Positions 1-14,452 of a DNA stretch of 14,452 nucleotides are shown one piece after another. Each line of letters opens with the position of its first letter. Positions within the stretch are counted from its first letter, which is position 1. The notes under the pieces were generated by a model. That model made no database searches, had not been told where the DNA came from, and saw only the letters and a program-made list of their open reading frames with translations. Source of the stretch: a virus; the IMG/VR virus record IMGVR_UViG_3300045988_109471, positions 1 through 14,452 of that record; one strand, written 5' to 3'. A program made the translations under genes and the position numbers.

Positions 1-300
1 GCGTACTATATACAGAATTCTGTAATATTCCAGTTCCCACCGTTACAGATTTCTGAACAGTTGCTTGTACATGTCCTGCGAACACATGTCCGAAGTGCGT
101 GCGCACACCTGCAAGCAGGGCAGTGCGTGCGTGCCGGTGTACATAGTAACAATTGCTAGTTATAAGAATGATACAATTGTGCATAGTATGGTTATATAGT
201 ACATGTACCTGAAAGGCGCTCTGTGCTATACTATAATTGTACTATAAGGGTACTTATCGCTATATGACATACCGACACAGAAAGGGAGAATTTGAAATGA
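1..300. repeat. Left inverted terminal repeat (ITR-L), 300 bp
   Basis: Read directly: 1..300 is the exact reverse complement of 14153..14452, compared block by block over all 300 nt. Identity breaks at 301 vs 14152. The repeat sits at the exact window end, as expected for a linear protein-primed replicon. Confidence 0.97.
204..237 (+). promoter_or_regulatory. Candidate early promoter inside ITR-L, pointing inward
   Basis: Tandem -10-like boxes: TGcTATACT (224-232, extended -10) and TATAAT (232-237). CTGAAA (209-214) lies exactly 17 nt upstream of TATAAT. The 10-nt palindrome GTACATGTAC (199-208) abuts the -35 position. The promoter faces RBS AGGGAG (283-288) and ATG 297. This is sequence pattern only. 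Confidence 0.5.
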
Positions 301-545
301 AAAAACGCGTTATCACACCACTGGATTTTTACCGCACCTGTTACGATCTGGCACCCGACATTTTAGTTAGTGTGTACAGTGCAACGAAAGATGAAATGCC
401 CCTTTGGACTGGTGAGTTTAGGTCGATGCCCGTTGCATACCGCGATGCAATTATTGACTATATGTTTATTTGCTCGGATGGGTCAAAGATTAGAAAATTG
501 ATTTTTGCCCTGCAAGATAGGAGTATTGACTATGGCAAAGCGTAA
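297..545 (+). CDS. Hypothetical small early protein, 82 aa (DFYRxC / TGE motif family)
   Basis: ATG 297 is preceded by AGGGAG (283-288) with an 8-nt spacer. The longer track ORF from 237 starts at a TTG inside the -10 box and is not favoured. No family recognised. It shares a DFYRxC ... VY ... (W/Y)TGE(F/Y)xx(M/L)P pattern with the ORF at 13596..13778. Confidence 0.6.
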   Translation: MKKRVITPLDFYRTCYDLAPDILVSVYSATKDEMPLWTGEFRSMPVAYRDAIIDYMFICSDGSKIRKLIFALQDRSIDYGKA

Positions 546-1158
546 ACCTACGCAATACGCGTGGCAAGATCTTGAATATACCCCGTATTATCTCAATAAG
601 CACACAGAAGCAGAACTACGCAAAGAGTATAGCAAGCTCCGCTCGATTGTGCGCAAACGTCAAGAGCGTCTGGAAAAATCAGAATTTGCAGATCTCGAAG
701 AAGTCAAGCATTATGGCAAGTTGCCACCTGTTGCGCAAATCAAGAATAAAGAGCAACTTGTCTATGCGCTTGCAGAAGCTAAACGCTTTTTGTCTGAAGA
801 TATATCAATTACTCGTTTTAAGCGTGAACGCAAAGACATGATTGCAAAACTTAATGCCAACGGTTATAAATTTGTTACAAGCAAGAATTTTTTATCATTT
901 GTCATGTTTATGGAGACAATGCGAACCATTGCGCAGAATATGCATTTTGACTCGGAAGTGATCGCGAACGCTTACGAAAATGTGACAACCGGCAAAATTC
1001 CGGCATCAAAACTGCAAAAGTGGTTTACAAATTTTATCAAAAAGCAAGAAGAAGCTGCCCGCAACTTTCCTGATAAATATTCCCGTACAAAAGGGGGCAA
1101 GGTGAAAATTGAAAGTAAAGACCTTGAAGAATGGGCAAGCCATTTGTTCGGTTATTGA
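532..1158 (+). CDS. Putative terminal protein (protein primer), 208 aa
   Basis: ATG 532 has AGGAG (519-523) 8 nt upstream; the track start at 505 is a TTG without an RBS. The gene lies immediately upstream of, and overlaps, the protein-primed polymerase gene, as phi29 gene 3 does with gene 2. It has a basic N-terminus (MAKRKPT...) and a charged helical block (AELRKEYSKLRSIVRKRQERLEKS), resembling by eye the phi29 TP N-terminus as I recall it. No motif-level proof. Confidence 0.5.
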   Translation: MAKRKPTQYAWQDLEYTPYYLNKHTEAELRKEYSKLRSIVRKRQERLEKSEFADLEEVKHYGKLPPVAQIKNKEQLVYALAEAKRFLSEDISITRFKRERKDMIAKLNANGYKFVTSKNFLSFVMFMETMRTIAQNMHFDSEVIANAYENVTTGKIPASKLQKWFTNFIKKQEEAARNFPDKYSRTKGGKVKIESKDLEEWASHLFGY

Positions 1159-3205
1159 CTTTCCGCTTGAGAAATTTGCCGCGCTGCCTGTTTTGGAGCG
1201 GAAAATCACAAGAACTAAAAAGACAAAATTGCTTGATATTGTGACAGCGTTTGACATTGAAACAACCCGTATTAAGTCAATCGAACAAGCTGTGATGTAT
1301 ATTTGGCAATGGCATTTTGCAGAACCCATCAATCTAACTGTTGTTGGCAGAACATGGGATGAATTTGAAGCATTGTGTGCCAGCCTTGAAGCCTGCATGC
1401 AAGAACAATCTCAAGAAGATTATCATTTGCAGCTGTGTGTATATGTCCACAATCTGTCATATGAGTTTCAGTTTTTACGCGGTATCTACCATTTTACAAA
1501 TGATGAGATTTTTGCAGTTGATTGCCGTAAAGTCCTGAAATGCGCGATGTACGATGATTTTTTTGAATTCCGTTGCAGCTATTTGCATAGCAATATGAGC
1601 CTTGATGCATACACCCACAAAATGGGCGTTGCCCACGGCAAACTATCCGGTGTAAAATTTGACTATAACAAACTGCGCTATCCATGGACGGCGTTGACGG
1701 ATGATGAACTTGAATATTGTGTAAACGATGTACTCGGCTTGTGTGAAGCCCTGACCATTGAAATGCACCACGACAATGATAACCTGTACACAATCCCGCT
1801 TACCTCAACCGGTTATGTGCGCCGCGATGCACGCGCCGCAATGAAACGCGCCGGAATGGAACGTCTTGGTGCTATCCAGCCCGATGCAGAATTATACACA
1901 ATGCTGCGTGAAGCGTTCCGTGGTGGCAACACCCACGCAAACCGTTATTATACCGGTCAAGTGCTGCGCGGCAAAATACAGAGCGCAGACCGCAGCAGCA
2001 GTTATCCGGATGTGCTGTGCAATTGCCTTTACCCAATGCGTGCTTTTGAGCCCATTGGCGAAATAACACTAGACGGCCTTAAACGCAAACTCAACAAGCA
2101 CAGAAAAGCATTGATAATGCGTATTGCATTAACAGACGTTGAGTTAATCAACCCTTGCTGGGGTTGCCCATATCTTACGATTGATAAGAGCCGGAACGTA
2201 ATTGACCCCGACCGCGACAACGGGCGAATATTGAGCGCAAAATATCTCGAAACAACCGTGACTGACGTTGACTTAGCAATCATTCTTAAAGAGTACAAGT
2301 TTAGCGGTTTTCGGGCATTTGACTGCTGGCAATCCACCTATGCCAAATTGCCCCGCGACCTGATTGAATGTGCAATATATTATTACCGCGCAAAAACCAG
2401 TCTTAAGAACGTAACCGGGCAAGAGTTGTACTACATGAAGAGTAAAAACAAGCTGAATAGCATATATGGCATGATGGCACAAGACCCCGGCAAACGCTCC
2501 ATTTTATACACACCGGAAGAAGAATTTGAAATTGATGAAAAAACGCCAATCGAAAATATCTTGTCGCAAAATCTGCGCAACGCCTTTTTGTGCTATCAAT
2601 GGGGCGTATGGGTGACAGCCAATGCACGCTATCGGCTTGAAGAGGGCATAGAGCTTGCAGGGGATGGCTTTGTCTATTGTGATACCGACTCTGTAAAATA
2701 TCTTGGTGACATTGACTGGACAAAATACAACAAATCCAGAATCAAAGACAGCAAAGCATCCGGTGCTTATGCAGCAGATCCATCCGGCAAAATGCATTAC
2801 ATGGGTGTTTTTGAACCTGAACATGATATGTGCGAATTTGCCACACTGGGCGCGAAAAAGTATTGTTACCGCGAAACGCCGGAAAGCCCTTTGTGCTGTA
2901 CAATCGCTGGTGTAAATAAAAAAGAGGGTGCAAAAGAGTTGGAACGCCACGGCGGCATTGATGCATTTAAGCCGGGCTTTGTTTTTAAGGATGCCGGTGG
3001 TACAGAAGCCGTATATAATGATAGTCCAGAGATGGACAGCATTACAATAGACGGTCATGTCCTGCCGATCACATCCAACGTTGTGATCCGTGAAAGCACA
3101 TACAAACTAGGAATTACTGCGGAATATATGGACTTGCTTTTGCGCTGCGACTATACCCGAAAAGGTATTGGCAGGCTGGATGAATATTTTGAAAATGGGT
3201 GTTGA
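1109..3205 (+). CDS. Protein-primed family B DNA polymerase (phi29 gp2-like), 698 aa
   Basis: Motifs seen in the translation: ExoI FDIETT (about nt 1250-1267), ExoII YCVNDV, motif A DRSSSYPDV, motif B KSKNKLNSIYGMMAQ, motif C YCDTDS (nt 2675-2692), KxY LGAKKYCY. The first in-frame ATG lies after ExoI, so the start must be non-ATG. TTG 1109 (or TTG 1124) fits, with AAGGGGG/AAGGTG (1091-1104) upstream. Confidence 0.95.
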   Translation: MKVKTLKNGQAICSVIDFPLEKFAALPVLERKITRTKKTKLLDIVTAFDIETTRIKSIEQAVMYIWQWHFAEPINLTVVGRTWDEFEALCASLEACMQEQSQEDYHLQLCVYVHNLSYEFQFLRGIYHFTNDEIFAVDCRKVLKCAMYDDFFEFRCSYLHSNMSLDAYTHKMGVAHGKLSGVKFDYNKLRYPWTALTDDELEYCVNDVLGLCEALTIEMHHDNDNLYTIPLTSTGYVRRDARAAMKRAGMERLGAIQPDAELYTMLREAFRGGNTHANRYYTGQVLRGKIQSADRSSSYPDVLCNCLYPMRAFEPIGEITLDGLKRKLNKHRKALIMRIALTDVELINPCWGCPYLTIDKSRNVIDPDRDNGRILSAKYLETTVTDVDLAIILKEYKFSGFRAFDCWQSTYAKLPRDLIECAIYYYRAKTSLKNVTGQELYYMKSKNKLNSIYGMMAQDPGKRSILYTPEEEFEIDEKTPIENILSQNLRNAFLCYQWGVWVTANARYRLEEGIELAGDGFVYCDTDSVKYLGDIDWTKYNKSRIKDSKASGAYAADPSGKMHYMGVFEPEHDMCEFATLGAKKYCYRETPESPLCCTIAGVNKKEGAKELERHGGIDAFKPGFVFKDAGGTEAVYNDSPEMDSITIDGHVLPITSNVVIRESTYKLGITAEYMDLLLRCDYTRKGIGRLDEYFENGC

Positions 3206-3288: not shown

Positions 3289-3639
3289 ATGGAAATCATC
3301 AAGAGCTATCCCGAAAATCTGACCCTGAAGCAGGCTTACAGCCTGACCCGCAACCCCAACTCCCGCTCGATGAAAACGCTTGAGGGCGCGACTTTTAACA
3401 TTGACGCTTACGCCCTGTATGAAGACGTCAACGCTAAGGGTGACAAACAGGCAGTTCTTGCCGTGCTTACAAGCGAGGGCGACACGTTTAGCACAATCTC
3501 CGAAACTTTTAAGCGAGACTTTGAGGCAATCGTTGATATGGTTAACCAGTACAAAGCCGACCTTGCCACTGTTGATATTGAGGTTATCGGTGGCGAAAGC
3601 AAATCTGGCAGACACTATATCGGTTGCAAGATGAATTAA
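3289..3639 (+). CDS. Putative single-stranded DNA-binding protein (phi29 p5-like), 116 aa
   Basis: ATG 3289 has strong RBS AAAGGAG (3273-3279), its own promoter and a downstream terminator, which suits a highly expressed gene. By-eye similarity to phi29 p5 as I recall it: VLAVLTSEGDTFSTISETF...VDIEVIGGESKSGRHY vs TTIFAADGSLYSAISKTV...KVKVVQGTSSKGNVF. This needs a profile search. Confidence 0.6.
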   Translation: MEIIKSYPENLTLKQAYSLTRNPNSRSMKTLEGATFNIDAYALYEDVNAKGDKQAVLAVLTSEGDTFSTISETFKRDFEAIVDMVNQYKADLATVDIEVIGGESKSGRHYIGCKMN

Positions 3640-3670
3640 CCAGTTCCATTCTTGACATAATTCCTCCCAC

Positions 3671-3704
3671 AAAAGGGCGGCGGCTTGAAAACCGCCGCCC
3701 TTTT
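3671..3704 (+). terminator. Rho-independent terminator after the SSB gene
   Basis: GC-rich 9-bp stem GGGCGGCGG (3675-3683) / CCGCCGCCC (3692-3700), 8-nt loop, flanked by AAAA (3671-3674) and TTTT (3701-3704). Confidence 0.7.
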
Positions 3705-3728
3705 GAAATATATGAAAGCGAGTAAAAG

Positions 3729-4793
3729 ATGAAAAAGAACAAACTGTATCTAGAATCTGGATACCTGAACATGGATTATATTATGGCTCTGAAAACACCC
3801 TATATTATGGTTGTCGGCGGACGTGCCACCGGTAAAACATACGGTGCATTAAAATATGTACTTGAGCACCGGATCACTTTCATGCTCATGCGCCGCACAC
3901 AAACCGCCATTGACCTTGTCAATAAACCAGAGTTCAGCCCCATCAAGCCGGTCTGTGAAGATATGGGCTTGAGCATCAAACCTTTTCCGATCTCCAAAGG
4001 TAGCAGTGCTTTTTACGATGTGGATGAAGAGGGCAAATGCACCGGCGGCCTGCCGTATGGTTACACCTGCGCACTGTCCACAATCTCCAATATGCGCGGT
4101 TTTAGCGCAGAGGATTGCAAAATCTGTATTTATGATGAATTCATCCCCGAAAAACACGAACGTCCGCTAAAAAATGAAGCTGCGGCATTTTACAACGCTT
4201 ATGAAACTATCAACCGAAATAGAGAATTAAAAGGCGAACCGCCCCTTAAAATGCTGTGTCTTGCCAATGCAAACGATATTGCAAACCCGCTATTTTTGGA
4301 TATGGGGCTTGTAGCACGTGCGCAGCGGATGATTGATACCAAAACAGAGATGTGGCAAGATAATGAGCGTGGTATTACATTGATTATGCTCCAGCACTCC
4401 CCGATCTCTGCGGAAAAAGCAAATACTGCACTATACCGGCTTACAAAAAATACATTGTATAGCGCAATGGCGCTGGATAATGATTTCAGGCAAGAGTATA
4501 GCCGGATCACCCCTCAAAAAATCATTGAGTATAAGCCGGTGTGCGTTGTGGGTGAGCTGGAAATCTACCAACACAAATCCCGCGATCAATATTATGTAAC
4601 AACCCACAAATCGGGCGTTTGCCCAACCTATAAGAGCACAGAGCGCGGGATTCAGATGTTTAACGCGCACTTTTCATGGTTTAGGCTCACATACTATTTA
4701 AGCAATACCGTGTTATTTGAGTCTCCTATCTGTGAAGTTTTACTAGATAAGTATTTTCGGGAAGGTGCGAAAATCTCAAGTCGAAAAGCATAA
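3729..4793 (+). CDS. DNA encapsidation (packaging) ATPase, phi29 gp16-like, 354 aa
   Basis: Walker A GGRATGKT (nt 3816-3839) and Walker B-like ICIYDEFIPE. The block YETINRNRELKGEPPLKMLCLANANDIANPLFLDMGLV matches by eye phi29 gp16 MDTVFRNRERVRCICLSNAVSVVNPYFLFFNLV (recalled). Confidence 0.9.
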   Translation: MKKNKLYLESGYLNMDYIMALKTPYIMVVGGRATGKTYGALKYVLEHRITFMLMRRTQTAIDLVNKPEFSPIKPVCEDMGLSIKPFPISKGSSAFYDVDEEGKCTGGLPYGYTCALSTISNMRGFSAEDCKICIYDEFIPEKHERPLKNEAAAFYNAYETINRNRELKGEPPLKMLCLANANDIANPLFLDMGLVARAQRMIDTKTEMWQDNERGITLIMLQHSPISAEKANTALYRLTKNTLYSAMALDNDFRQEYSRITPQKIIEYKPVCVVGELEIYQHKSRDQYYVTTHKSGVCPTYKSTERGIQMFNAHFSWFRLTYYLSNTVLFESPICEVLLDKYFREGAKISSRKA

Positions 4794-4794
4794 A

Positions 4795-4825
4795 AACAGC
4801 CCCTGCCGTATTGGCAGGGGCTGTT
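4795..4825. terminator. Bidirectional rho-independent terminator between convergent ATPase and tail-spike genes
   Basis: 13-bp stem AACAGCCCCTGCC (4795-4807) / GGCAGGGGCTGTT (4813-4825) with a 5-nt loop. On the minus strand it is followed by TTTTTA (complement of 4790-4794); on the plus strand only a weak T-rich tail follows. Confidence 0.8.
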
Positions 4826-4829
4826 GCTG

Positions 4830-7298
4830 TTAAGAAATGTTAGGGCGCAAAACCTTGATAGCAGTCATGCCGTCATGATTCTTCCACCGCGGGAAATCCA
4901 TGGGAGTGCCGTCCATGTTGCGGATCCGGTCAAGCATTACCGGGGAGTTGCCCGGCTGGAATCCCGATACCTGCACAGTATACGCATAGGATGCAGGACG
5001 CTTGCAATACAGAATAATGGCATTGCCGTCATTGACATAATACAGTTTGTCTGTGTTGCTGACAACATCCCATGTAACTTTTTTGTCTGCCCCGGTCATT
5101 GCTTTGTAAATCGACAGATTAAGTTTGCGGTTATCAACTGCACTGATTGCAAATAGGCCACCGGTTGCGGGGTTGTTGGAAATATAGATGGTATAGTCTA
5201 CATCATTGATGTCACAGATACGGATGCATCCCTGGGAGTTGATGCCCTCGGTCGGAATAGGCAGATAAGCAAAAGCCTTGTACTGTTCGGGATCGCCGGT
5301 CTCCGATTGCCCTGCGACTGTGTACTGTGTCTGATCTGTAATTGACAGGTCAATGCACCGATGCTCTCCGGCCTTGCAAATATACTGGTTATTGCCGCTA
5401 AAAATATATTCGCGCTTGGTATAGATATACGCATTATTGATCTTGCACATCATGGCAGTGACGGGGTACTTGCCGATTGTCTGCACCGTGGTGGATACTT
5501 TGGAACTGCGGTTAATGATGCCCCCGTCAACGGTTAACTGCGGGCTGGGACTTGTGCCAATCAGTGCAATTGCTGCGTTGCCATTTCCGGTGGTTGCCGT
5601 GTCGTCATTGATCGTATAAATCAGGTTGCTGATATATGCGGCAGCCTTGCCCGGCCCGTCAAATACAATGCCCCTGCGGCAGGTATCAAGATACAGGTTG
5701 GTAATATGCACATCATTGTTTGTGACTTTAAGGCCGTTGGTATCCTCCCACCAAGTATTTGCGTCAACTCCACCGGCGCCGCCGGAGGGGATACCGTTAT
5801 AGGTGATCCAGTTACAGCCAAACACATTAGTCCGACAGTCAAAACCGGTCTGGCATACCATTGCTAGCAGGTTATTGCAATCGCAATCCGGCGACTTGTC
5901 GCCCCAATAAAACGCAACGTTACCGGCAACACGCTCTGCCGGGTGGACATCGCTAAAGCCCCATACCGAAACATTATCCATATAGCAGTACCGGCTTAAC
6001 GTGCTGGTACTGGGCTGTAAGTACACACCATAGGATTTTACACTGCCGATACTGACATTTGCGATATAGTTATCGGTGTAGTTGTCGGTCGTAAACACAA
6101 TACCGCCGATCATGCCGTTGCAAATAATATCAAGATTTGCGATAACAACGTTTCCATCCACATCATTACCGGATACGGTAAGCACTCCAAGGCTGCCAAA
6201 TGCAGTAGGGTTGCCGGTATACTTCAAAATTGTGTCACTACTGCCGCGTGCAGGGTCGCGGGACGCGCTTGCACCGTACAAGCTATGTTTGAGCTGCACC
6301 GGGGCGCTAATCTTGTATGTGCCAATAGGGACAGACAGCGGGAATTGTTTGGTATAGGTGTTTAAGGTTGCTGTGATGTCGTCCGTGCCGTCCTTTTTGA
6401 GCTTTTGAAACTCCTCGATGCTACGCGGGGAAGGCTTGATACTGTCGGGAATTTTGCCGGTGCGGCTAACCAAAAAATCTGTGTCACGGTTAGCTACTCG
6501 GATGTTGACGACAGCATAATTGTCATCAATATTGGTGGTGTGAAGCGAACTAAAGTTTGGTACACCATAGATATCTAGGGGTGTATTTCTGCTGCTGCTG
6601 CCCACTGTAATGGCATAATTTGTTGCCGTTAGTACAGACATATCGTTTTGCCGGATGCCAAAAGCACCACCGGAATTTAAGCGCAAAGTTCCGTCAACCG
6701 TCTGATTAAAGTTTCCGCTGACCGTCTGCGCAAGGTCCCCGGTGGTGTCCTTATCAATCTTGTTAGGCAGTGCTGTGTTAATAGCCGTAACGTCATTTTG
6801 CAGCGTGCTCACAGCATGCGCCAAATTGGCAAGTCTTGCATCAATCGTGGTTTTTGCCGTGTTGTTGGTGCCGTACTCGGTGCCGCGTGTAATTGCGGTG
6901 GTGCAGACATATAGGGTATTATTGAGCCATACAAGGTCGCCGTTTGCCCGGTCTGCGCTTGCCGTGGTTTTGAGTCCCTCATCTGCTGCCGCGATTGCCA
7001 ATTTGACCGTGCTCCATAGCTCGGAAAAATTGCCAATCTTTGTCCAGTAGTCGGTGTTGTCGATTTCCACGCCGACCGGCACCGGCTGCACGCTTAAATA
7101 GCCGTCTCCGTTGGTATCAAGCACAACCTGATTTTTAGGGTACTGCCGCGTAATATCCCATTGCAGCGGGTTTGCATAGGTAATGCTATTGAGCGAGATA
7201 AAATCCGCAATAGCTGCATCCTGCTTTTTGAGCGTCTCCAAAATCCAGTCAAGATTTAGCTCGTGGAAATTGGTATAAGGCCATCTGGTATCAAACAT
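4830..7298 (-). CDS. Tail spike / appendage protein with right-handed beta-helix (pectin-lyase-like) central domain, 822 aa
   Basis: ATG 7298 has AAGGAG 8 nt upstream. The N-terminal FHELNLDWILETLKK-type virion-attachment domain is common in Firmicute phage fibers. A short coiled segment (RLANLAHAVSTLQNDVTAINTAL) follows. A long Gly/Asn/Thr/Val-rich repetitive beta region (e.g. VTNNDVHITNLYLDTCRRGIVFDG) is typical of beta-helix depolymerase spikes. It is the last gene of the late operon, as phi29 gp12 follows the collar genes. Confidence 0.8.
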   Translation of the reverse strand: MFDTRWPYTNFHELNLDWILETLKKQDAAIADFISLNSITYANPLQWDITRQYPKNQVVLDTNGDGYLSVQPVPVGVEIDNTDYWTKIGNFSELWSTVKLAIAAADEGLKTTASADRANGDLVWLNNTLYVCTTAITRGTEYGTNNTAKTTIDARLANLAHAVSTLQNDVTAINTALPNKIDKDTTGDLAQTVSGNFNQTVDGTLRLNSGGAFGIRQNDMSVLTATNYAITVGSSSRNTPLDIYGVPNFSSLHTTNIDDNYAVVNIRVANRDTDFLVSRTGKIPDSIKPSPRSIEEFQKLKKDGTDDITATLNTYTKQFPLSVPIGTYKISAPVQLKHSLYGASASRDPARGSSDTILKYTGNPTAFGSLGVLTVSGNDVDGNVVIANLDIICNGMIGGIVFTTDNYTDNYIANVSIGSVKSYGVYLQPSTSTLSRYCYMDNVSVWGFSDVHPAERVAGNVAFYWGDKSPDCDCNNLLAMVCQTGFDCRTNVFGCNWITYNGIPSGGAGGVDANTWWEDTNGLKVTNNDVHITNLYLDTCRRGIVFDGPGKAAAYISNLIYTINDDTATTGNGNAAIALIGTSPSPQLTVDGGIINRSSKVSTTVQTIGKYPVTAMMCKINNAYIYTKREYIFSGNNQYICKAGEHRCIDLSITDQTQYTVAGQSETGDPEQYKAFAYLPIPTEGINSQGCIRICDINDVDYTIYISNNPATGGLFAISAVDNRKLNLSIYKAMTGADKKVTWDVVSNTDKLYYVNDGNAIILYCKRPASYAYTVQVSGFQPGNSPVMLDRIRNMDGTPMDFPRWKNHDGMTAIKVLRPNIS

Positions 7299-10878: not shown

Positions 10879-10909
10879 AAAAATACCCCGTGCCATAACT
10901 GACACGGGG
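10879..10909 (-). terminator. Intra-operon rho-independent terminator/attenuator after the capsid gene
   Basis: On the minus strand: CCCCGTGTC-agttat-GGCACGGGG (10909..10886; 9-bp stem including one G-U pair), followed by TATTTTT (10885..10879). It lies between the capsid stop (10923) and the tail-knob RBS. Confidence 0.6.
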
Positions 10910-10922
10910 CTATTATTAAGAG

Positions 10923-12475: not shown

Positions 12476-12786
12476 TACTTATCCCCACCCCTCGGCATAA
12501 TGATATTTGCGAGCACATCTTCTGCGGTCTGCGGCTTTGGCTGTTCAGTCGCCGCAATGTTCATGGTTTTAATTTGAGCGCCCAATGCATTGATAGCCGC
12601 AATAATGCCGTTTGCATCCTCAACGGGTGCAGCGGGGGCAGCGGGCGCGGCAGGGGCAGCGGGTGCGGCGGGGGCAGCGGGCGTTGCAGGGGCAGCGGGT
12701 GCGGCGTTGTCAAAAGTGACAAGCTTTGCAAGGTCGTCTTTGGTATAACCTGCACGGCACAGAGCAATAATATCATCAATAGTCAT
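12475..12786 (-). CDS. Putative scaffolding protein with (Ala-Ala-Pro)9 linker, 103 aa
   Basis: ATG 12786 has GAGGTG (12800..12795) 8 nt upstream. The track's longer ORF (to 12960) overlaps the upstream gene and lacks an RBS. It is small, helical and acidic, lies upstream of the capsid gene like phi29 gp7, and ends ...AEDVLANIIMPRGGDK. Confidence 0.6.
   Translation of the reverse strand: MTIDDIIALCRAGYTKDDLAKLVTFDNAAPAAPATPAAPAAPAAPAAPAAPAAPVEDANGIIAAINALGAQIKTMNIAATEQPKPQTAEDVLANIIMPRGGDK
12625..12705. repeat. Tandem 9-nt repeat x9 (two 36-nt super-units) encoding AAPAAPATPAAPAAPAAPAAPAAPAAP
   Basis: Read directly: nine 9-mers lie between 12625 and 12705. The 36-nt unit 12634-12669 is repeated at 12670-12705 with 2 mismatches. 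It is in frame within the scaffold CDS. Confidence 0.85.
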
Positions 12787-12791
12787 GTATA

Positions 12792-13004
12792 TTACACCTC
12801 TTTCAATACGGTTGTTTTGGTTTGGTCGTTGATAAGTTTGACAAGTGTGTCTTTGTCGCCTGCCGTCATGGGGCCGCATACAGCGTTTTGATTGTAATTG
12901 TGGGTGTATTCGCTGTAATAGCCAATACCCAATTGCTTGCATTTGCTGTATACAATCCACGCCTGTGCGCTAGTAATGTCGGCATACATTACAACATACA
13001 TCAT
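12792..13004 (-). CDS. Hypothetical protein, 70 aa
   Basis: ATG 13004 overlaps the stop of the upstream small ORF (ATGA overlap). Its stop at 12792 lies inside the scaffold RBS region. No family recognised. Confidence 0.55.
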   Translation of the reverse strand: MMYVVMYADITSAQAWIVYSKCKQLGIGYYSEYTHNYNQNAVCGPMTAGDKDTLVKLINDQTKTTVLKEV

Positions 13005-13153
13005 GCATCACCGTCCTGTTTGCTCATGTGCTCGCAGAGTTTTACGATGGCAGCGGTGTTTTCTTTGATCGTGGTGTTACTCTGCCACCACATAAGCAAA
13101 AATGCTGCAATCGGAAAACCAACCTGCTGGATGATAGTGATAATCTCTTCCAT
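13001..13153 (-). CDS. YvrJ-like small single-pass membrane protein, 50 aa (holin candidate)
   Basis: Not in the supplied ORF track (below the size cutoff); I translated it by hand. ATG 13153 has GAGGTG (13165..13160) 6 nt upstream. Product: MEEIITIIQQVGFPIAAFLLMWWQSNTTIKENTAAIVKLCEHMSKQDGDA. The N-terminal ...VGFPIAAFLL... hydrophobic helix followed by a polar helical tail matches the YvrJ-family pattern as I recall it. Confidence 0.6.
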   Translation of the reverse strand: MEEIITIIQQVGFPIAAFLLMWWQSNTTIKENTAAIVKLCEHMSKQDGDA

Positions 13154-13180
13154 GGTTTACACCTCACTTTCAGGGGACGG

Positions 13181-13270
13181 AAATACAAAAAGCGGGAAAA
13201 GACTCTTGACCCGCTACAAGGTCGTGCGCCGGATTCCGTCCGTATAGCTTGCGCATCTTTTCCCGCTTTC
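13181..13270 (-). ncRNA. Structured RNA element: three-way-junction fold closed by a 14-bp stem and followed by a U-tract (terminator-like leader or small RNA)
   Basis: Minus-strand RNA. AAAGCGGGAAAAGA (13269..13256) pairs perfectly with UCUUUUCCCGCUUU (13202..13189). Inside are helix UGCGC/GCGCA (13255..13251 / 13229..13225), hairpin CGGA-CGGAA-UCCG (13242..13230) and hairpin CUUG-UAGCGGGU-CAAG (13220..13205). The 3' side runs into UUUUUGUAUUU (13191..13181). Hand-folded; no energy calculation. Confidence 0.5.
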
Positions 13271-13299
13271 ATAATATCATATTAAGTTATTGATGTCAA
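13271..13299 (-). promoter_or_regulatory. Near-consensus sigma-A/sigma-70 promoter with extended -10, reading leftward
   Basis: Minus strand: TTGACA (13299..13294), a 17-nt spacer ending in TGa, then TATTAT (13276..13271). It overlaps the stop codon (13282-13284) of the upstream early gene. Confidence 0.75.
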
Positions 13300-13995: not shown

Positions 13996-14156
13996 TTGTA
14001 GACCACCTCCTCCTGTATGGACTCATCAGAAATGCCCATAAAGGACATATAATCTTTTGTCGCAATCAATGCTTCCCTAGTGCTCATGCCCACATATACC
14101 TGCACATGATTAAGCATATCAATTACAAAAATCACCGCTGCATCTCTAATAATCAT
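13992..14156 (-). CDS. Hypothetical small early protein, 54 aa (first gene of the right arm)
   Basis: Its ATG (14156..14154) and RBS AGGGAG lie inside ITR-R and are identical to the initiation region of the left-end gene. The sequence diverges one base after the ATG. Confidence 0.5.
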   Translation of the reverse strand: MIIRDAAVIFVIDMLNHVQVYVGMSTREALIATKDYMSFMGISDESIQEEVVYK

Positions 14157-14452
14157 TTCAAATTCTCCCTTTCTGTGTCGGTATGTCATATAGCGATAAG
14201 TACCCTTATAGTACAATTATAGTATAGCACAGAGCGCCTTTCAGGTACATGTACTATATAACCATACTATGCACAATTGTATCATTCTTATAACTAGCAA
14301 TTGTTACTATGTACACCGGCACGCACGCACTGCCCTGCTTGCAGGTGTGCGCACGCACTTCGGACATGTGTTCGCAGGACATGTACAAGCAACTGTTCAG
14401 AAATCTGTAACGGTGGGAACTGGAATATTACAGAATTCTGTATATAGTACGC
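14153..14452. repeat. Right inverted terminal repeat (ITR-R), 300 bp
   Basis: Exact reverse complement of 1..300 and ends at the last base of the window. Confidence 0.97.
14216..14249 (-). promoter_or_regulatory. Candidate early promoter inside ITR-R, pointing inward (mirror copy)
   Basis: Identical sequence to 204..237 by ITR symmetry. It would drive the leftward right-arm genes starting at ATG 14156. Confidence 0.5.

What the first reader, a model, noticed from the sequence alone, without database searches (positions are those of the whole stretch)
13189..13269. The ~80-nt element folds like a miniature pRNA: closing helix, three-way junction, complementary bulge and hairpin loops
Hand-folded minus-strand RNA. 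Helix A is AAAGCGGGAAAAGA (13269..13256) paired with UCUUUUCCCGCUUU (13202..13189), 14 bp. Arm 1 is UGCGC/GCGCA (13255..13251 / 13229..13225), an 8-nt bulge AAGCUAUA (13250..13243), then hairpin CGGA-CGGAA-UCCG (13242..13230). Arm 2 is CUUG-UAGCGGGU-CAAG (13220..13205). The bulge GCUA (13248..13245) is complementary to the arm-2 loop UAGC (13216..13213). The phi29 pRNA is required by the gp16 ATPase and docks on the portal. It likewise has paired 5'/3' ends, a three-way junction and a 4-nt bulge-loop/hairpin-loop pairing (AACC/GGUU) that links monomers into a ring. This genome has gp16-like and gp10-like proteins but no other obvious pRNA locus, and the element has its own strong promoter and a U-tract end. 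Caveats: 4-nt complementarity is easily chance, the RNA is shorter than phi29 pRNA (about 120 nt minimal), and the fold was not energy-evaluated.
Basis: inference. Interest (0 to 1): 0.75.

Follow-up and report, generated by a model that had tools for sequence, protein, structure and literature searches.

The report
Conserved pRNA-like RNA in gut podophages

Summary
The fold is real. RNAfold reproduces helix A, arm 1, the 8-nt bulge and the E hairpin (-34.9 kcal/mol, z -4.5).

The window is a complete 14.4-kb phi29-like genome with 300-bp terminal repeats, PolB, a gp16 ATPase and a gp10 connector. The element lies directly behind the best sigma-70 promoter, upstream of a holin gene, the capsid gene and other structural genes.

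Covariance models and a descriptor find the same RNA, once per genome, in about 85 related gut and rumen phage contigs (capsid identity down to about 30%). A probable copy occurs in the cultured Amedibacillus phage AD70P3.

Across 43 distinct sequences, 97-98% of helix cells pair and 20 of 22 pairs show double changes. The bulge/hairpin-loop complementarity is kept through more than 20 different sequences. The E pentaloop CGGAA is nearly invariant.

The RNA matches no Rfam family, including pRNA (RF00044).

The most likely reading is a miniature packaging-RNA analogue (about 0.45). The main rival is a cis-acting leader of the structural operon with an internal pseudoknot (about 0.3). Function is untested.

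The parts
13271..13299 (-). Sigma-70-type promoter: TTGACA (13299-13294), 17-nt spacer ending in TGa (extended -10), TATTAT (13276-13271). The transcript should start at about 13266-13262, inside the outer part of helix A.
   Evidence: Best of 39 promoter-like sites in the window. A TTGACA-16/18-TAnnnT promoter sits 0-11 nt before helix A in most relatives.
13256..13269 (-). Helix A, 5' strand: AAAGCGGGAAAAGA. G13270 can add one further pair.
   Evidence: MFE fold. The inner 9 pairs are paired in 99.5% of cells, and all 9 show double changes. L012 carries a G-C to U-A double change and L008 a G-C to G-U change.
13251..13255 (-). Helix C, 5' strand: UGCGC. The junction-closing U pairs with A13225.
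   Evidence: The four inner pairs are 100% paired. The fifth is paired in 28 of 35 sequences (UA, UG or CG).
13243..13250 (-). One-sided 8-nt bulge AAGCUAUA, the counterpart of the pRNA CE loop. GCUAUA (13248-13243) is complementary to the D loop.
   Evidence: In L008 both partners change and pairing is kept: GCUAUG with UAUAGC.
13230..13242 (-). Helix E with its pentaloop: CGGA-CGGAA-UCCG. The loop is 13238-13234.
   Evidence: Helix E covaries. The loop is CGGAA in nearly all members and CAGAA, CGAAA or CCGAA in a few. It never varies among close relatives.
13225..13229 (-). Helix C, 3' strand: GCGCA.
13208..13223 (-). Helix D with its loop: GACCU-UGUAGC-GGGUC. The loop (13218-13213) pairs with the bulge. 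One unpaired nucleotide, C13224, lies before it.
Evidence: The arm is paired in 94.9% of cells and 4 of 5 pairs show double changes.
13203..13207 (-). Junction strand AAGAG between helix D and helix A. The family consensus is about A-N-G-A-G.
13189..13202 (-). Helix A, 3' strand: UCUUUUCCCGCUUU.
13181..13193 (-). U-rich tail GCUUUUUGUAUUU. It overlaps the last helix-A pairs and looks like a terminator only if the outer A-U pairs are absent from the RNA.
   Evidence: Sequence. A U run of at least 4 within 16 nt occurs in 25 of 49 family variants.
13001..13165 (-). Ribosome-binding site GAGGUG (13165-13160) and the 50-aa holin gene (13153-13001). This is the first gene of the operon that holds the capsid and other structural genes, and it lies downstream of the RNA.
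   Evidence: phrog_4898 holin, E 2.8e-7. Gene map.

Best explanation
The element is one member of a previously undescribed family of structured RNAs of about 70-100 nt. The family is carried once per genome by small phi29-like phages of gut and rumen Firmicutes (protein-primed, with a gp16 ATPase and a gp10 connector).

Shown:
- It is transcribed in the sense of the capsid-gene operon, directly from a strong host-type promoter.
- It folds into a long closing helix A and a three-way junction.
- One arm (C, 5 bp) is interrupted on its 5' side by a 7-8-nt bulge and capped by a 4-bp hairpin with the near-invariant loop CGGAA (E).
- A second hairpin (D) has a loop that is Watson-Crick complementary to the bulge.

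Inferred mechanism: it works like a miniature prohead/packaging RNA.
- The invariant E loop contacts the capsid, as the phi29 pRNA E loop does.
- Helix A projects as the docking spoke for the gp16-like ATPase.
- The free RNA would come from termination at the U tract where there is one (as in this window), or from cleavage in the AU-rich linker before the next gene.
For: Structure in the window:
- MFE -34.9 kcal/mol, z -4.5.

A family exists:
- Model R1 was built from 12 sequences. It finds unseen members at E 1e-5 to 1e-10, always on the capsid-gene strand and upstream of that gene.
- Model R2 adds more.
- A strict descriptor gives exactly one hit per genome in the window, L032, L036, L120 and the cultured Amedibacillus phage AD70P3. 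It gives none in phi29, phiCPV4 or astrithr.
- Every locus that has sequence at the expected place carries the RNA, except one incomplete contig.

Covariation:
- 97.9% of cells pair, and 20 of 22 pairs show double changes.
- The covariation score is 0.96, against 0.21 for shuffles and at most 0.18 for slid controls.
- U-G pairs fix the transcribed strand.

Bulge/D-loop pairing:
- The mean longest complementary run within a molecule is 4.4.
- It is 2.8 for cross-pairings and 2.9 for shuffled loops (maximum 3.3 in 200 shuffles).
- More than 20 different pairing sequences occur. Close relatives differ only by compensating changes: GGUCA/UGACC against GACCA/UGGUC, and GGACA/UGUCC against GAACA/UGUUC.

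Likeness to phi29 pRNA:
- The order of elements is the same. phi29 has an 8-nt 5'-side bulge (AUUAAACC) before a 4-bp E helix, and its pRNA starts just after a consensus promoter.
- Covarying CE/D loops and conserved structure with little sequence identity are described hallmarks of pRNA (PMC5066667).
- The phi29 E loop is what binds the capsid (PMC6542822, PMC8104870). Here the E loop is the most conserved part.

Host phage:
- It has gp16 and gp10 homologues.
- Neither the Rfam scan nor my models found another candidate RNA in the window; the other non-coding stretches were not folded.

Junction geometry:
- Linker lengths are A/C 0, C/D 1 and D/A 4-5 nt.
- By the three-way-junction family rules, as I recall them from Lescoute and Westhof 2006 (not readable here) and as illustrated in PMC4536322 and PMC3258123, this predicts A-C stacking with D folded along A.
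- D would then point away from the bulge, which favours pairing between molecules. This is inference.
Against: - No experiment exists. No RNA ends are known, and no prohead association is known.
- The Rfam pRNA model does not match.
- The RNA is about half the size of the pRNA domain. With C at 5 bp, D at about 5 bp and about 5 kissing pairs, each ring side is about 14 bp; phi29 has about 21. A pentamer could not enclose a connector: the phi29 ring has an 85 A inner diameter (PMC6542822). Eight or more copies, or a different geometry, would be needed. This is my estimate.
- The C and D arms are of similar length, so an intramolecular pseudoknot is sterically conceivable.
- The RNA is always in sense orientation at the head of the operon that holds the capsid and other structural genes, or after its first gene in the rumen clade.
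- Half of the variants have no U tract after helix A. This is what a cis-acting leader would look like.
- There is no conserved bulge in helix A (phi29 needs its CCA bulge) and no domain II.
- The alignments used for the pair counts were fitted to the model.
Confidence: 0.45

Rival explanations
1. Cis-acting leader RNA of the structural (capsid-gene) operon. The bulge/D-loop pairing is an intramolecular pseudoknot that locks a compact fold. The fold acts on the transcribing polymerase or on the mRNA it belongs to. Candidate roles are processive antitermination in the manner of HK022 put or the Bacillus EAR element, attenuation at the U tract, or binding of a phage or host protein that times expression.
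For: - Position is invariant: sense strand, 0-11 nt after the -10 box of the operon promoter, or right after the first (holin) gene in the rumen clade. It is always upstream of the capsid and other structural genes.
- 24 of 49 variants lack a U run, so the RNA is simply the 5' part of the operon mRNA.
- The operon contains an internal terminator-like hairpin after the capsid gene (10910-10885).
- The C and D arms have similar lengths, so cis pairing is conceivable.
- Ring geometry is awkward for a pRNA (my estimate from PMC6542822).
Against: - Helix A is 9-20 bp and very stable. No alternative pairing with the ribosome-binding site or a terminator is conserved, which is unlike riboswitches and attenuators.
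- put RNAs, as I recall them, are two simple stem-loops without a junction or covarying loop pairing.
- The junction linker lengths predict that D folds away from the bulge (inference from PMC4536322 and PMC3258123).
- The pairing sequence turns over quickly between close relatives, while helix C and the E loop stay fixed.
- Moving the element from before to after the holin gene does not fit a regulator of the adjacent gene.
Confidence: 0.3
2. Trans-acting small RNA with another job. Examples would be a decoy or sponge for a host protein or defence system, or a scaffold for a non-packaging step of assembly.
For: - Strong promoter, compact stable fold and an invariant apical loop that looks like a protein-binding site.
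- U tract in the window clade.
- No match to any Rfam family.
Against: - Nothing points to a specific target.
- The family follows the capsid and packaging module across very divergent genomes.
- The covarying self-complementary loops are unexplained by a decoy model.
Confidence: 0.12
3. A plain structural signal with no specific tertiary function. It would be an intrinsic terminator for the upstream small-ORF operon, or a 5' stabiliser hairpin for the downstream structural-gene mRNA.
For: - Helix A plus GCUUUUUGUAUUU resembles a terminator.
- The L012 double change preserves an outer helix-A pair that the promoter-derived RNA may not even contain.
- The helix lies at the 5' end of the mRNA.
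Against: - A terminator or stabiliser needs only a hairpin.
- Here three inner helices, a fixed 5-bp C arm, an invariant pentaloop and a covarying bulge/loop pairing are all conserved down to about 30% capsid identity.
- Half of the variants have no U tract.
- In the rumen clade the element is not at the 5' end.
Confidence: 0.08

Closest known systems
phi29-family prohead/packaging RNA (pRNA; Rfam RF00044), known from Bacillus phages phi29, PZA, M2/Nf, B103, SF5, GA1 and relatives
   Same: - It is encoded by a protein-primed podophage with a gp16 ATPase and a gp10 connector.
- It starts right after a consensus sigma-70/sigma-A promoter.
- Its 5' and 3' ends pair (helix A), and it has a three-way junction.
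- The 5'-to-3' order is the same: A, C, one-sided 7-8-nt bulge, 4-bp E hairpin, C, D hairpin, A.
- The bulge and D loop are Watson-Crick complementary and covary between phages.
- Structure is conserved with very little sequence identity.
   Different: - There is no detectable sequence or profile similarity: RF00044 scores 145 bits on phi29 and nothing here.
- The core is about 65-72 nt (81 nt with the full helix A); pRNA domain I is about 117 nt.
- Helix C is 5 bp where phi29 has about 11.
- The unpaired junction nucleotides lie between D and A instead of between C and D. The stacked pair of helices should therefore be A/C, not A/D.
- It has no CCA-type bulge in helix A, no domain II and a different E loop.
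- It is placed at the head of the structural (capsid-gene) operon instead of at the genome end.
- It often has no terminator.
- Its function is untested.
Cis-acting processive antitermination RNAs (HK022 putL/putR; Bacillus EAR element). Comparison from general knowledge.
   Same: - A structured RNA in the sense strand.
- It is promoter-proximal or early in a long operon that contains internal terminators.
- It needs no terminator or processing of its own.
   Different: - As I recall them, put RNAs are two stem-loops with no three-way junction and no covarying loop-bulge pairing.
- No Rfam family of this type matches.
- No terminator read-through has been tested here.
Three-way-junction riboswitch aptamers with long-range loop pairing (purine and THF-I types). 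Comparison from general knowledge.
   Same: - A closing helix, a three-way junction and a tertiary pairing between an arm loop and another loop or bulge.
- Located in a 5' leader.
   Different: - Helix A is 9-20 bp and static.
- There is no expression platform.
- Few nucleotides in the junction are conserved.
- The pairing sequence itself changes freely between close relatives.
- No Rfam match.

Membership tests
phi29-type pRNA (RF00044) | Match to the curated covariance model of the family | tested here: not met
   The window has no RF00044 match even at E up to 10. In a control the model hits phi29 at 145 bits, and it hits nothing in the window, AD70P3 or phiCPV4.
phi29-type pRNA (RF00044) | Encoded by a protein-primed phi29-like phage with a gp16 packaging ATPase and a gp10 connector | tested here: met
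   - 300-bp perfect terminal repeats.
- Pfam DNA_pol_B_2, Podovirus_Gp16 and Phage_connector.
- PDB matches 7JQQ and 1H5W.
phi29-type pRNA (RF00044) | Paired 5' and 3' ends (helix A) closing a three-way junction, with the order A, C, CE bulge, E hairpin, C, D hairpin, A | tested here: met
   - MFE fold of the window element.
- MFE fold of phi29 pRNA.
- Covariation across the family.
phi29-type pRNA (RF00044) | CE-bulge and D-loop Watson-Crick complementarity that covaries among phages | tested here: met
   Mean longest run within a molecule is 4.4, against 2.8-2.9 in controls. More than 20 different pairing sequences occur.
phi29-type pRNA (RF00044) | That complementarity acts between molecules, so that the RNA forms a ring or multimer | not testable with these tools
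   Only an indirect argument from junction linker lengths is available (PMC4536322, PMC3258123). It needs native gels, ultracentrifugation or trans-complementation.
phi29-type pRNA (RF00044) | Arm lengths that give a pentameric ring wide enough for the connector (85 A inner diameter in phi29), and a domain I of about 117 nt | tested here: not met
   C is 5 bp and D is 4-6 bp in all members. In phi29, C is about 11 bp. Ring size is from PMC6542822.
phi29-type pRNA (RF00044) | Bulge in helix A needed for ATPase binding (CCA in phi29), and a 3' domain II | tested here: not met
   Helix A of the window is an uninterrupted run of 14-16 bp. Bulges in relatives are not conserved. No second domain lies before the ribosome-binding site.
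phi29-type pRNA (RF00044) | Separate small transcript with its own strong promoter and a terminator | tested here: inconclusive
   The promoter is present. A U run follows helix A in 25 of 49 variants, this window included. The ends of the RNA are unknown.
phi29-type pRNA (RF00044) | Bound to proheads and required for DNA packaging, with packaging sensitive to RNase | not testable with these tools
   Experimental only.
Cis-acting antitermination or leader RNA (put/EAR type) | Sense orientation, promoter-proximal, upstream of terminators in the same operon | tested here: met
Cis-acting antitermination or leader RNA (put/EAR type) | Similarity in sequence or structure to a described family of that type | tested here: not met
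   No Rfam match of any kind over the element.
Riboswitch | Expression platform: alternative pairing of the closing helix with a terminator or ribosome-binding site | tested here: not met
   Helix A is 9-20 bp. The spacer to the ribosome-binding site varies in length and sequence, and no competing pairing is conserved.

The most novel reading that the evidence does not exclude
Packaging RNAs are not a peculiarity of Bacillus phages. A second, sequence-unrelated and much smaller class of prohead RNA serves the gp16 motors of Guelinviridae-like gut, rumen and clostridial podophages. Because its arms are short, it would use a stoichiometry or geometry different from the phi29 pentamer.
Probability: 0.4. 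Interest if true: 0.9.

Novelty: new variant of a known kind. Interest (0 to 1): 0.78.

Why it matters
Reviews from 2016 and 2024 (PMC5066667, PMC11476376) describe pRNA as unique to phi29 and its Bacillus relatives. How other phi29-like phages dock a gp16-type ATPase on the prohead is, as far as I know, unresolved.

This analysis provides several things:
- A conserved, covariation-supported RNA with the pRNA branch plan in a large set of uncultured phages.
- A probable copy in a cultured phage (Amedibacillus AD70P3).
- A look-alike in the Clostridium perfringens phages.

Together these make the question directly testable.

If the reading is confirmed:
- It would bear on the origin of pRNA.
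- It would give a natural minimal self-assembling RNA unit for motor studies and RNA nanotechnology.
- It would explain a non-coding region left without any feature in the deposited records examined (C. perfringens phages; AD70P3).

If the RNA is instead a cis-acting leader, it is still a new and widespread structured RNA that controls the structural-gene operon of phages.

Tried and rejected
- Sequence search (nhmmer) with the element found only relatives above about 87% identity. Covariance models were needed.
- An Rfam scan at E up to 10 gave nothing over the element. The weak hits at 3663-3752 are chance matches to a terminator hairpin.
- Reading the element as coding: a 76-aa ORF starts in the -10 box at 13272. 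Its ATG is absent in L002, L003, L005 and L007, and the spacer carries indels that shift the frame. Rejected.
- Plus-strand RNA: it folds equally well in the window. But U-G pairs in the family and strand-specific model hits fix the minus strand.
- A connector N-terminal basic patch as a test for RNA binding: it is absent here. The test was dropped because cryo-EM shows that phi29 pRNA barely touches the connector (PMC6542822, PMC8104870).
- A universal terminator after helix A: not found.
- A hot-spot test for the kissing nucleotides among close relatives: they vary about as much as the other loops, so this does not discriminate.
- Models R1 and R2 do not detect phi29 pRNA, AD70P3, L123 or phiCPV4, even with filters off. 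Those rest on architecture only.
- L097 has no element in the 4 kb upstream of its capsid gene. This is unexplained; the contig is incomplete.
Full report
**Context**

The window is a complete linear phage genome of 14,452 bp with perfect 300-bp inverted terminal repeats. The plus strand carries:
- a type-B DNA polymerase (1109-3205);
- a phi29-type SSB (3289-3639);
- a Podovirus_Gp16 packaging ATPase (3729-4793).

The minus strand carries, in order:
- four small ORFs (14216-13282);
- the element;
- a 50-aa holin (13153-13001; phrog_4898);
- three small ORFs;
- the capsid gene (12137-10923);
- a 490-aa ORF;
- an M23 peptidase;
- a gp10-type connector (8835-7915);
- tail genes.

The ATPase and connector match the phi29 structures 7JQQ and 1H5W by sequence.

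**The observation**

RNAfold of the minus strand 13269-13189 gives -34.9 kcal/mol. Shuffles give -22.4 +/- 2.8 (z -4.5, none of 200 as stable). MFE and centroid are identical.

Arm 2 comes out as GACCU-UGUAGC-GGGUC, not CUUG-UAGCGGGU-CAAG. With this arm the whole hairpin loop, UGUAGC, is complementary to GCUAUA in the bulge. That is six pairs, one of them G-U, instead of four.

The promoter TTGACA-17-TGaTATTAT (13299-13271) is the best consensus match in the genome. The tail after helix A is GCUUUUUGUAUUU.

The plus strand folds about as well, so the window alone does not decide the strand.

**Close relatives**

GenBank MT835998 and ten IMG/VR contigs (88-98% capsid identity) carry the element almost unchanged, while the promoter spacer and flanks vary. 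The few changes are informative:
- L012 changes G-C to U-A in helix A.
- L008 changes G-C to G-U in helix A.
- L008 also changes the last bulge base (A to G) and the second loop base (G to A), and both predicted bulge/loop pairs remain pairs.

**Distant relatives**

Contigs with 39-66% capsid identity have, at the same place, a consensus promoter followed by an RNA of different sequence. RNAfold folds each of these independently into the same shape.

- Model R1, built from 12 sequences, recovered members it had not seen in the viral-contig set (L021, L023-L028, L034, L035) at E 1e-5 to 1e-10.
- The metagenome scan added 42 further loci that R1 matches at E up to about 0.005.
- All hits are on the capsid-gene strand, upstream of that gene.
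- Model R2 added six loci. With filters off it added MT836263, MT836115 and MT836587, and it gave the top hit at the expected place in MT835901.
- A strict descriptor found exactly one hit per genome in the window, L032/L033, L036, MT836263 and the cultured Amedibacillus phage AD70P3 (Guelinviridae). The descriptor requires C of 4 bp, a bulge of 6-9 nt, E of 4-5 bp, loop YNRAA, a D hairpin, helix A of at least 6 bp, and bulge/loop complementarity of at least 3.
- The descriptor found none in phi29, phiCPV4 or Salmonella phage astrithr.
- MFE folds of these divergent versions again show the same architecture.
- Of the loci without a hit, all but one are contigs that end before the expected position. 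The exception is L097, an incomplete contig.

**Covariation**

On 43 distinct sequences (alignment A6):
- 97.9% of cells form standard pairs, and 20 of 22 pairs show changes on both sides.
- The covariation score is 0.96. Column shuffles give 0.21 and slid partners at most 0.18.
- Frequent U-G pairs (for example 21 of 43 at the top of helix D) would be A-C on the other strand, so the RNA is read in the sense of the capsid gene.

These alignments were fitted to the model, which inflates pair counts somewhat. The independent MFE folds and the hits to unseen sequences argue that the structure is real.

**The bulge/hairpin-loop pairing**

For each distinct RNA I took the bulge and the D loop and measured the longest antiparallel complementary run.
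- The mean is 4.4 within a molecule.
- It is 2.8 for bulges paired with loops of other members, and 2.9 with shuffled loops. The best of 200 shuffles gave 3.3.
- The pairing sequence differs between clades. Examples: GCUAUA/UGUAGC, GCACAA/UUGUGC, UGUGC/GCACA, UGCAC/GUGCA, GGUCA/UGACC, GACCA/UGGUC, CAAAUC/GAUUUG, UGUUGC/GCAACA, GGACA/UGUCC, GAACA/UGUUC, GAGU/ACUC, GAUCA/UGAUC, GUCCA/UGGAC, AAUCA/UGAUU and AAAGGAA/UUCCUUU.
- Two clades have only three G-C-rich pairs: UGC/GCA and CGC/GCG.
- L073 and L075 are identical in helices C, E and D and differ by two compensated pairs in this interaction.
- One variant, L046, lacks the complementarity.

The pairing is therefore under selection. Whether it forms within or between molecules cannot be read from sequences.

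**Other conserved features**

- The E pentaloop is CGGAA in nearly all members and CAGAA, CGAAA or CCGAA in a few.
- The C helix has a constant length, and its pair next to the bulge is always C-G.
- The bulge starts with A.
- The strand between D and A is about A-N-G-A-G.
- Among close relatives, helix C and the E loop never vary.
- Helix A is long (9-20 bp), sometimes with bulges that are not conserved.

**Position**

- In most clades helix A begins 0-11 nt after the -10 hexamer, so the RNA forms the 5' end of the transcript.
- In the rumen clade (L021-L028, L062, L065 and others) the promoter is followed by the holin gene, and the RNA sits right after its stop codon.
- In MT836115, MT836155, MT835901, MT836587 and AD70P3, the promoter and RNA lie just downstream of the gp16 gene and upstream of the capsid gene.
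- An AU-rich spacer and a ribosome-binding site always follow.
- A U run of at least 4 within 16 nt of helix A occurs in 25 of 49 variants, this window included.
- In the window the expected start point lies a few nucleotides inside helix A. The promoter-derived RNA then has a helix A of about 10-11 bp followed by GCUUUUUGUAUUU, which is terminator-like.
- L012 nevertheless preserves an outer pair. That pair would matter for transcripts reading in from the upstream ORFs.

**Comparison with pRNA**

- The phi29 record places pRNA at 320-147 on the minus strand, starting just after the consensus promoter A1.
- Its MFE fold shows A, C, an 8-nt 5'-side bulge (AUUAAACC), a 4-bp E helix, C, D and A. 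This is the same order as here.
- Reviews state that pRNAs share about 12% sequence identity but a conserved structure, that the CE and D loops pair between molecules, and that pRNA is known only from phi29 and related Bacillus phages (PMC5066667, PMC11476376).
- Cryo-EM shows a pentameric ring of 85 A inner diameter that barely touches the connector and binds capsid E loops through pRNA E-loop bases (PMC6542822, PMC8104870).

Differences here:
- No match to RF00044, which scores 145 bits on phi29 in the same run.
- About half the size, with C of 5 bp where phi29 has about 11.
- Junction bulge between D and A instead of between C and D.
- No helix-A bulge and no domain II.
- Located as an operon leader.

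**Geometry (my inference)**

- With about 14 bp per ring side, a pentamer would be too narrow for a connector. A ring would need eight or more copies, or the assembly would have to be different.
- Linker lengths are 0 (A/C), 1 (C/D) and 4-5 (D/A). By the three-way-junction family rules these predict A-C stacking with D folded along A. In family C junctions, as I recall the classification of Lescoute and Westhof 2006 (which I could not read here), the third stem lies beside the stem it joins by the long linker; PMC4536322 shows this arrangement. Stacking across the longest linker is rare (PMC3258123).
- D would then point away from the bulge, which favours intermolecular pairing.
- Both arguments are rules of thumb.

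**Verdict**

- The pRNA-like reading is the best single explanation (about 0.45). It rests on architecture, covarying loops, an invariant apical loop, a long helix A, the phage type, and no other RNA candidate found in the window by the Rfam scan or by my models.
- A cis-acting leader with an internal pseudoknot is the main rival (about 0.3), because of the invariant operon-leader position and the frequent lack of a terminator.
- Other trans-acting roles (about 0.12) and a plain terminator or stabiliser (about 0.08) are less likely.

No paper in the searchable library describes a pRNA outside Bacillus phages or this motif.

Noticed in passing
L119 (Clostridium phage phiCPV4, NC_018083) 16131-16343, minus strand: The 213-nt gap upstream of gp22 and the capsid gene carries no annotated feature in most of the 17 matching records; two annotate a hypothetical protein there. 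It is strongly structured (z -5.2) and 97.7-100% identical in 15 of those C. perfringens phage records, about 90% in CPS2.

It contains a look-alike of the element:
- helix AACAACG/CGUUGUU;
- C arm CACAGAC/GUCUGUG, with a compensated A-U to G-C change in phiZP2;
- 5' bulge CGCCA;
- E hairpin GGG-GUGGAA-CCC;
- D hairpin GGG-UUGGCA-CCC, whose loop UGGC complements the bulge GCCA.

My models do not detect it.
   Followed up: partly
L117 (Amedibacillus phage AD70P3, OP172639) about 6296-6367, minus strand: A cultured Guelinviridae phage has a probable family member after the promoter TTGACA-16-TATATT, between the gp16 gene and the capsid-gene block. Its bulge is AUAUCCAA, its E loop is CCGAA, and the bulge/loop complementarity is UCC/GGA or UAUCC/GGAUA. 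It was found by the descriptor and the MFE fold, not by the covariance models. It is a possible experimental system.
   Followed up: partly
window 1-300 and 14153-14452: Perfect 300-bp inverted terminal repeats carry repeated palindromes TACAGAATTCTGTA (11-24, 44-57 and their mirrors) and a promoter-like site (209-237, mirror 14244-14216). The terminal ORFs 237-545 (+) and 14216-13992 (-) start inside the repeat, so they share their first 21 codons.
   Followed up: no
window 12612-12710: Eight in-register 9-nt tandem units (CAGCGGGNG on the plus strand) lie inside the 161-aa minus-strand ORF 12960-12475. This is a short repeated peptide tract in a protein with no family match.
   Followed up: no
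window 3663-3710, 4795-4825 and 10885-10910: Three strong terminator-like hairpins. The first is a 17-bp palindromic hairpin between the SSB and gp16 genes, and it is the source of the weak chance Rfam hits. The second lies between the convergent gp16 and tail genes. The third follows the capsid gene inside the structural operon.
   Followed up: no
L021-L028, L058-L065 (rumen and other metagenome contigs): In this clade the operon promoter lies within about 100-200 nt of the contig (genome) end. The holin gene comes first, and the RNA follows its stop codon. The next gene begins with a CW_7-like 'AGKWGNG' motif (recognised by eye, not tested against a family library). The RNA module has therefore moved relative to the holin gene.
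   Followed up: partly
L097 2840-3005; L046 2648-2711: Two exceptions. L097 has 4 kb upstream of its capsid gene but no element. The L046 RNA has no bulge/D-loop complementarity, and its bulge holds the palindrome GUAC.
   Followed up: partly
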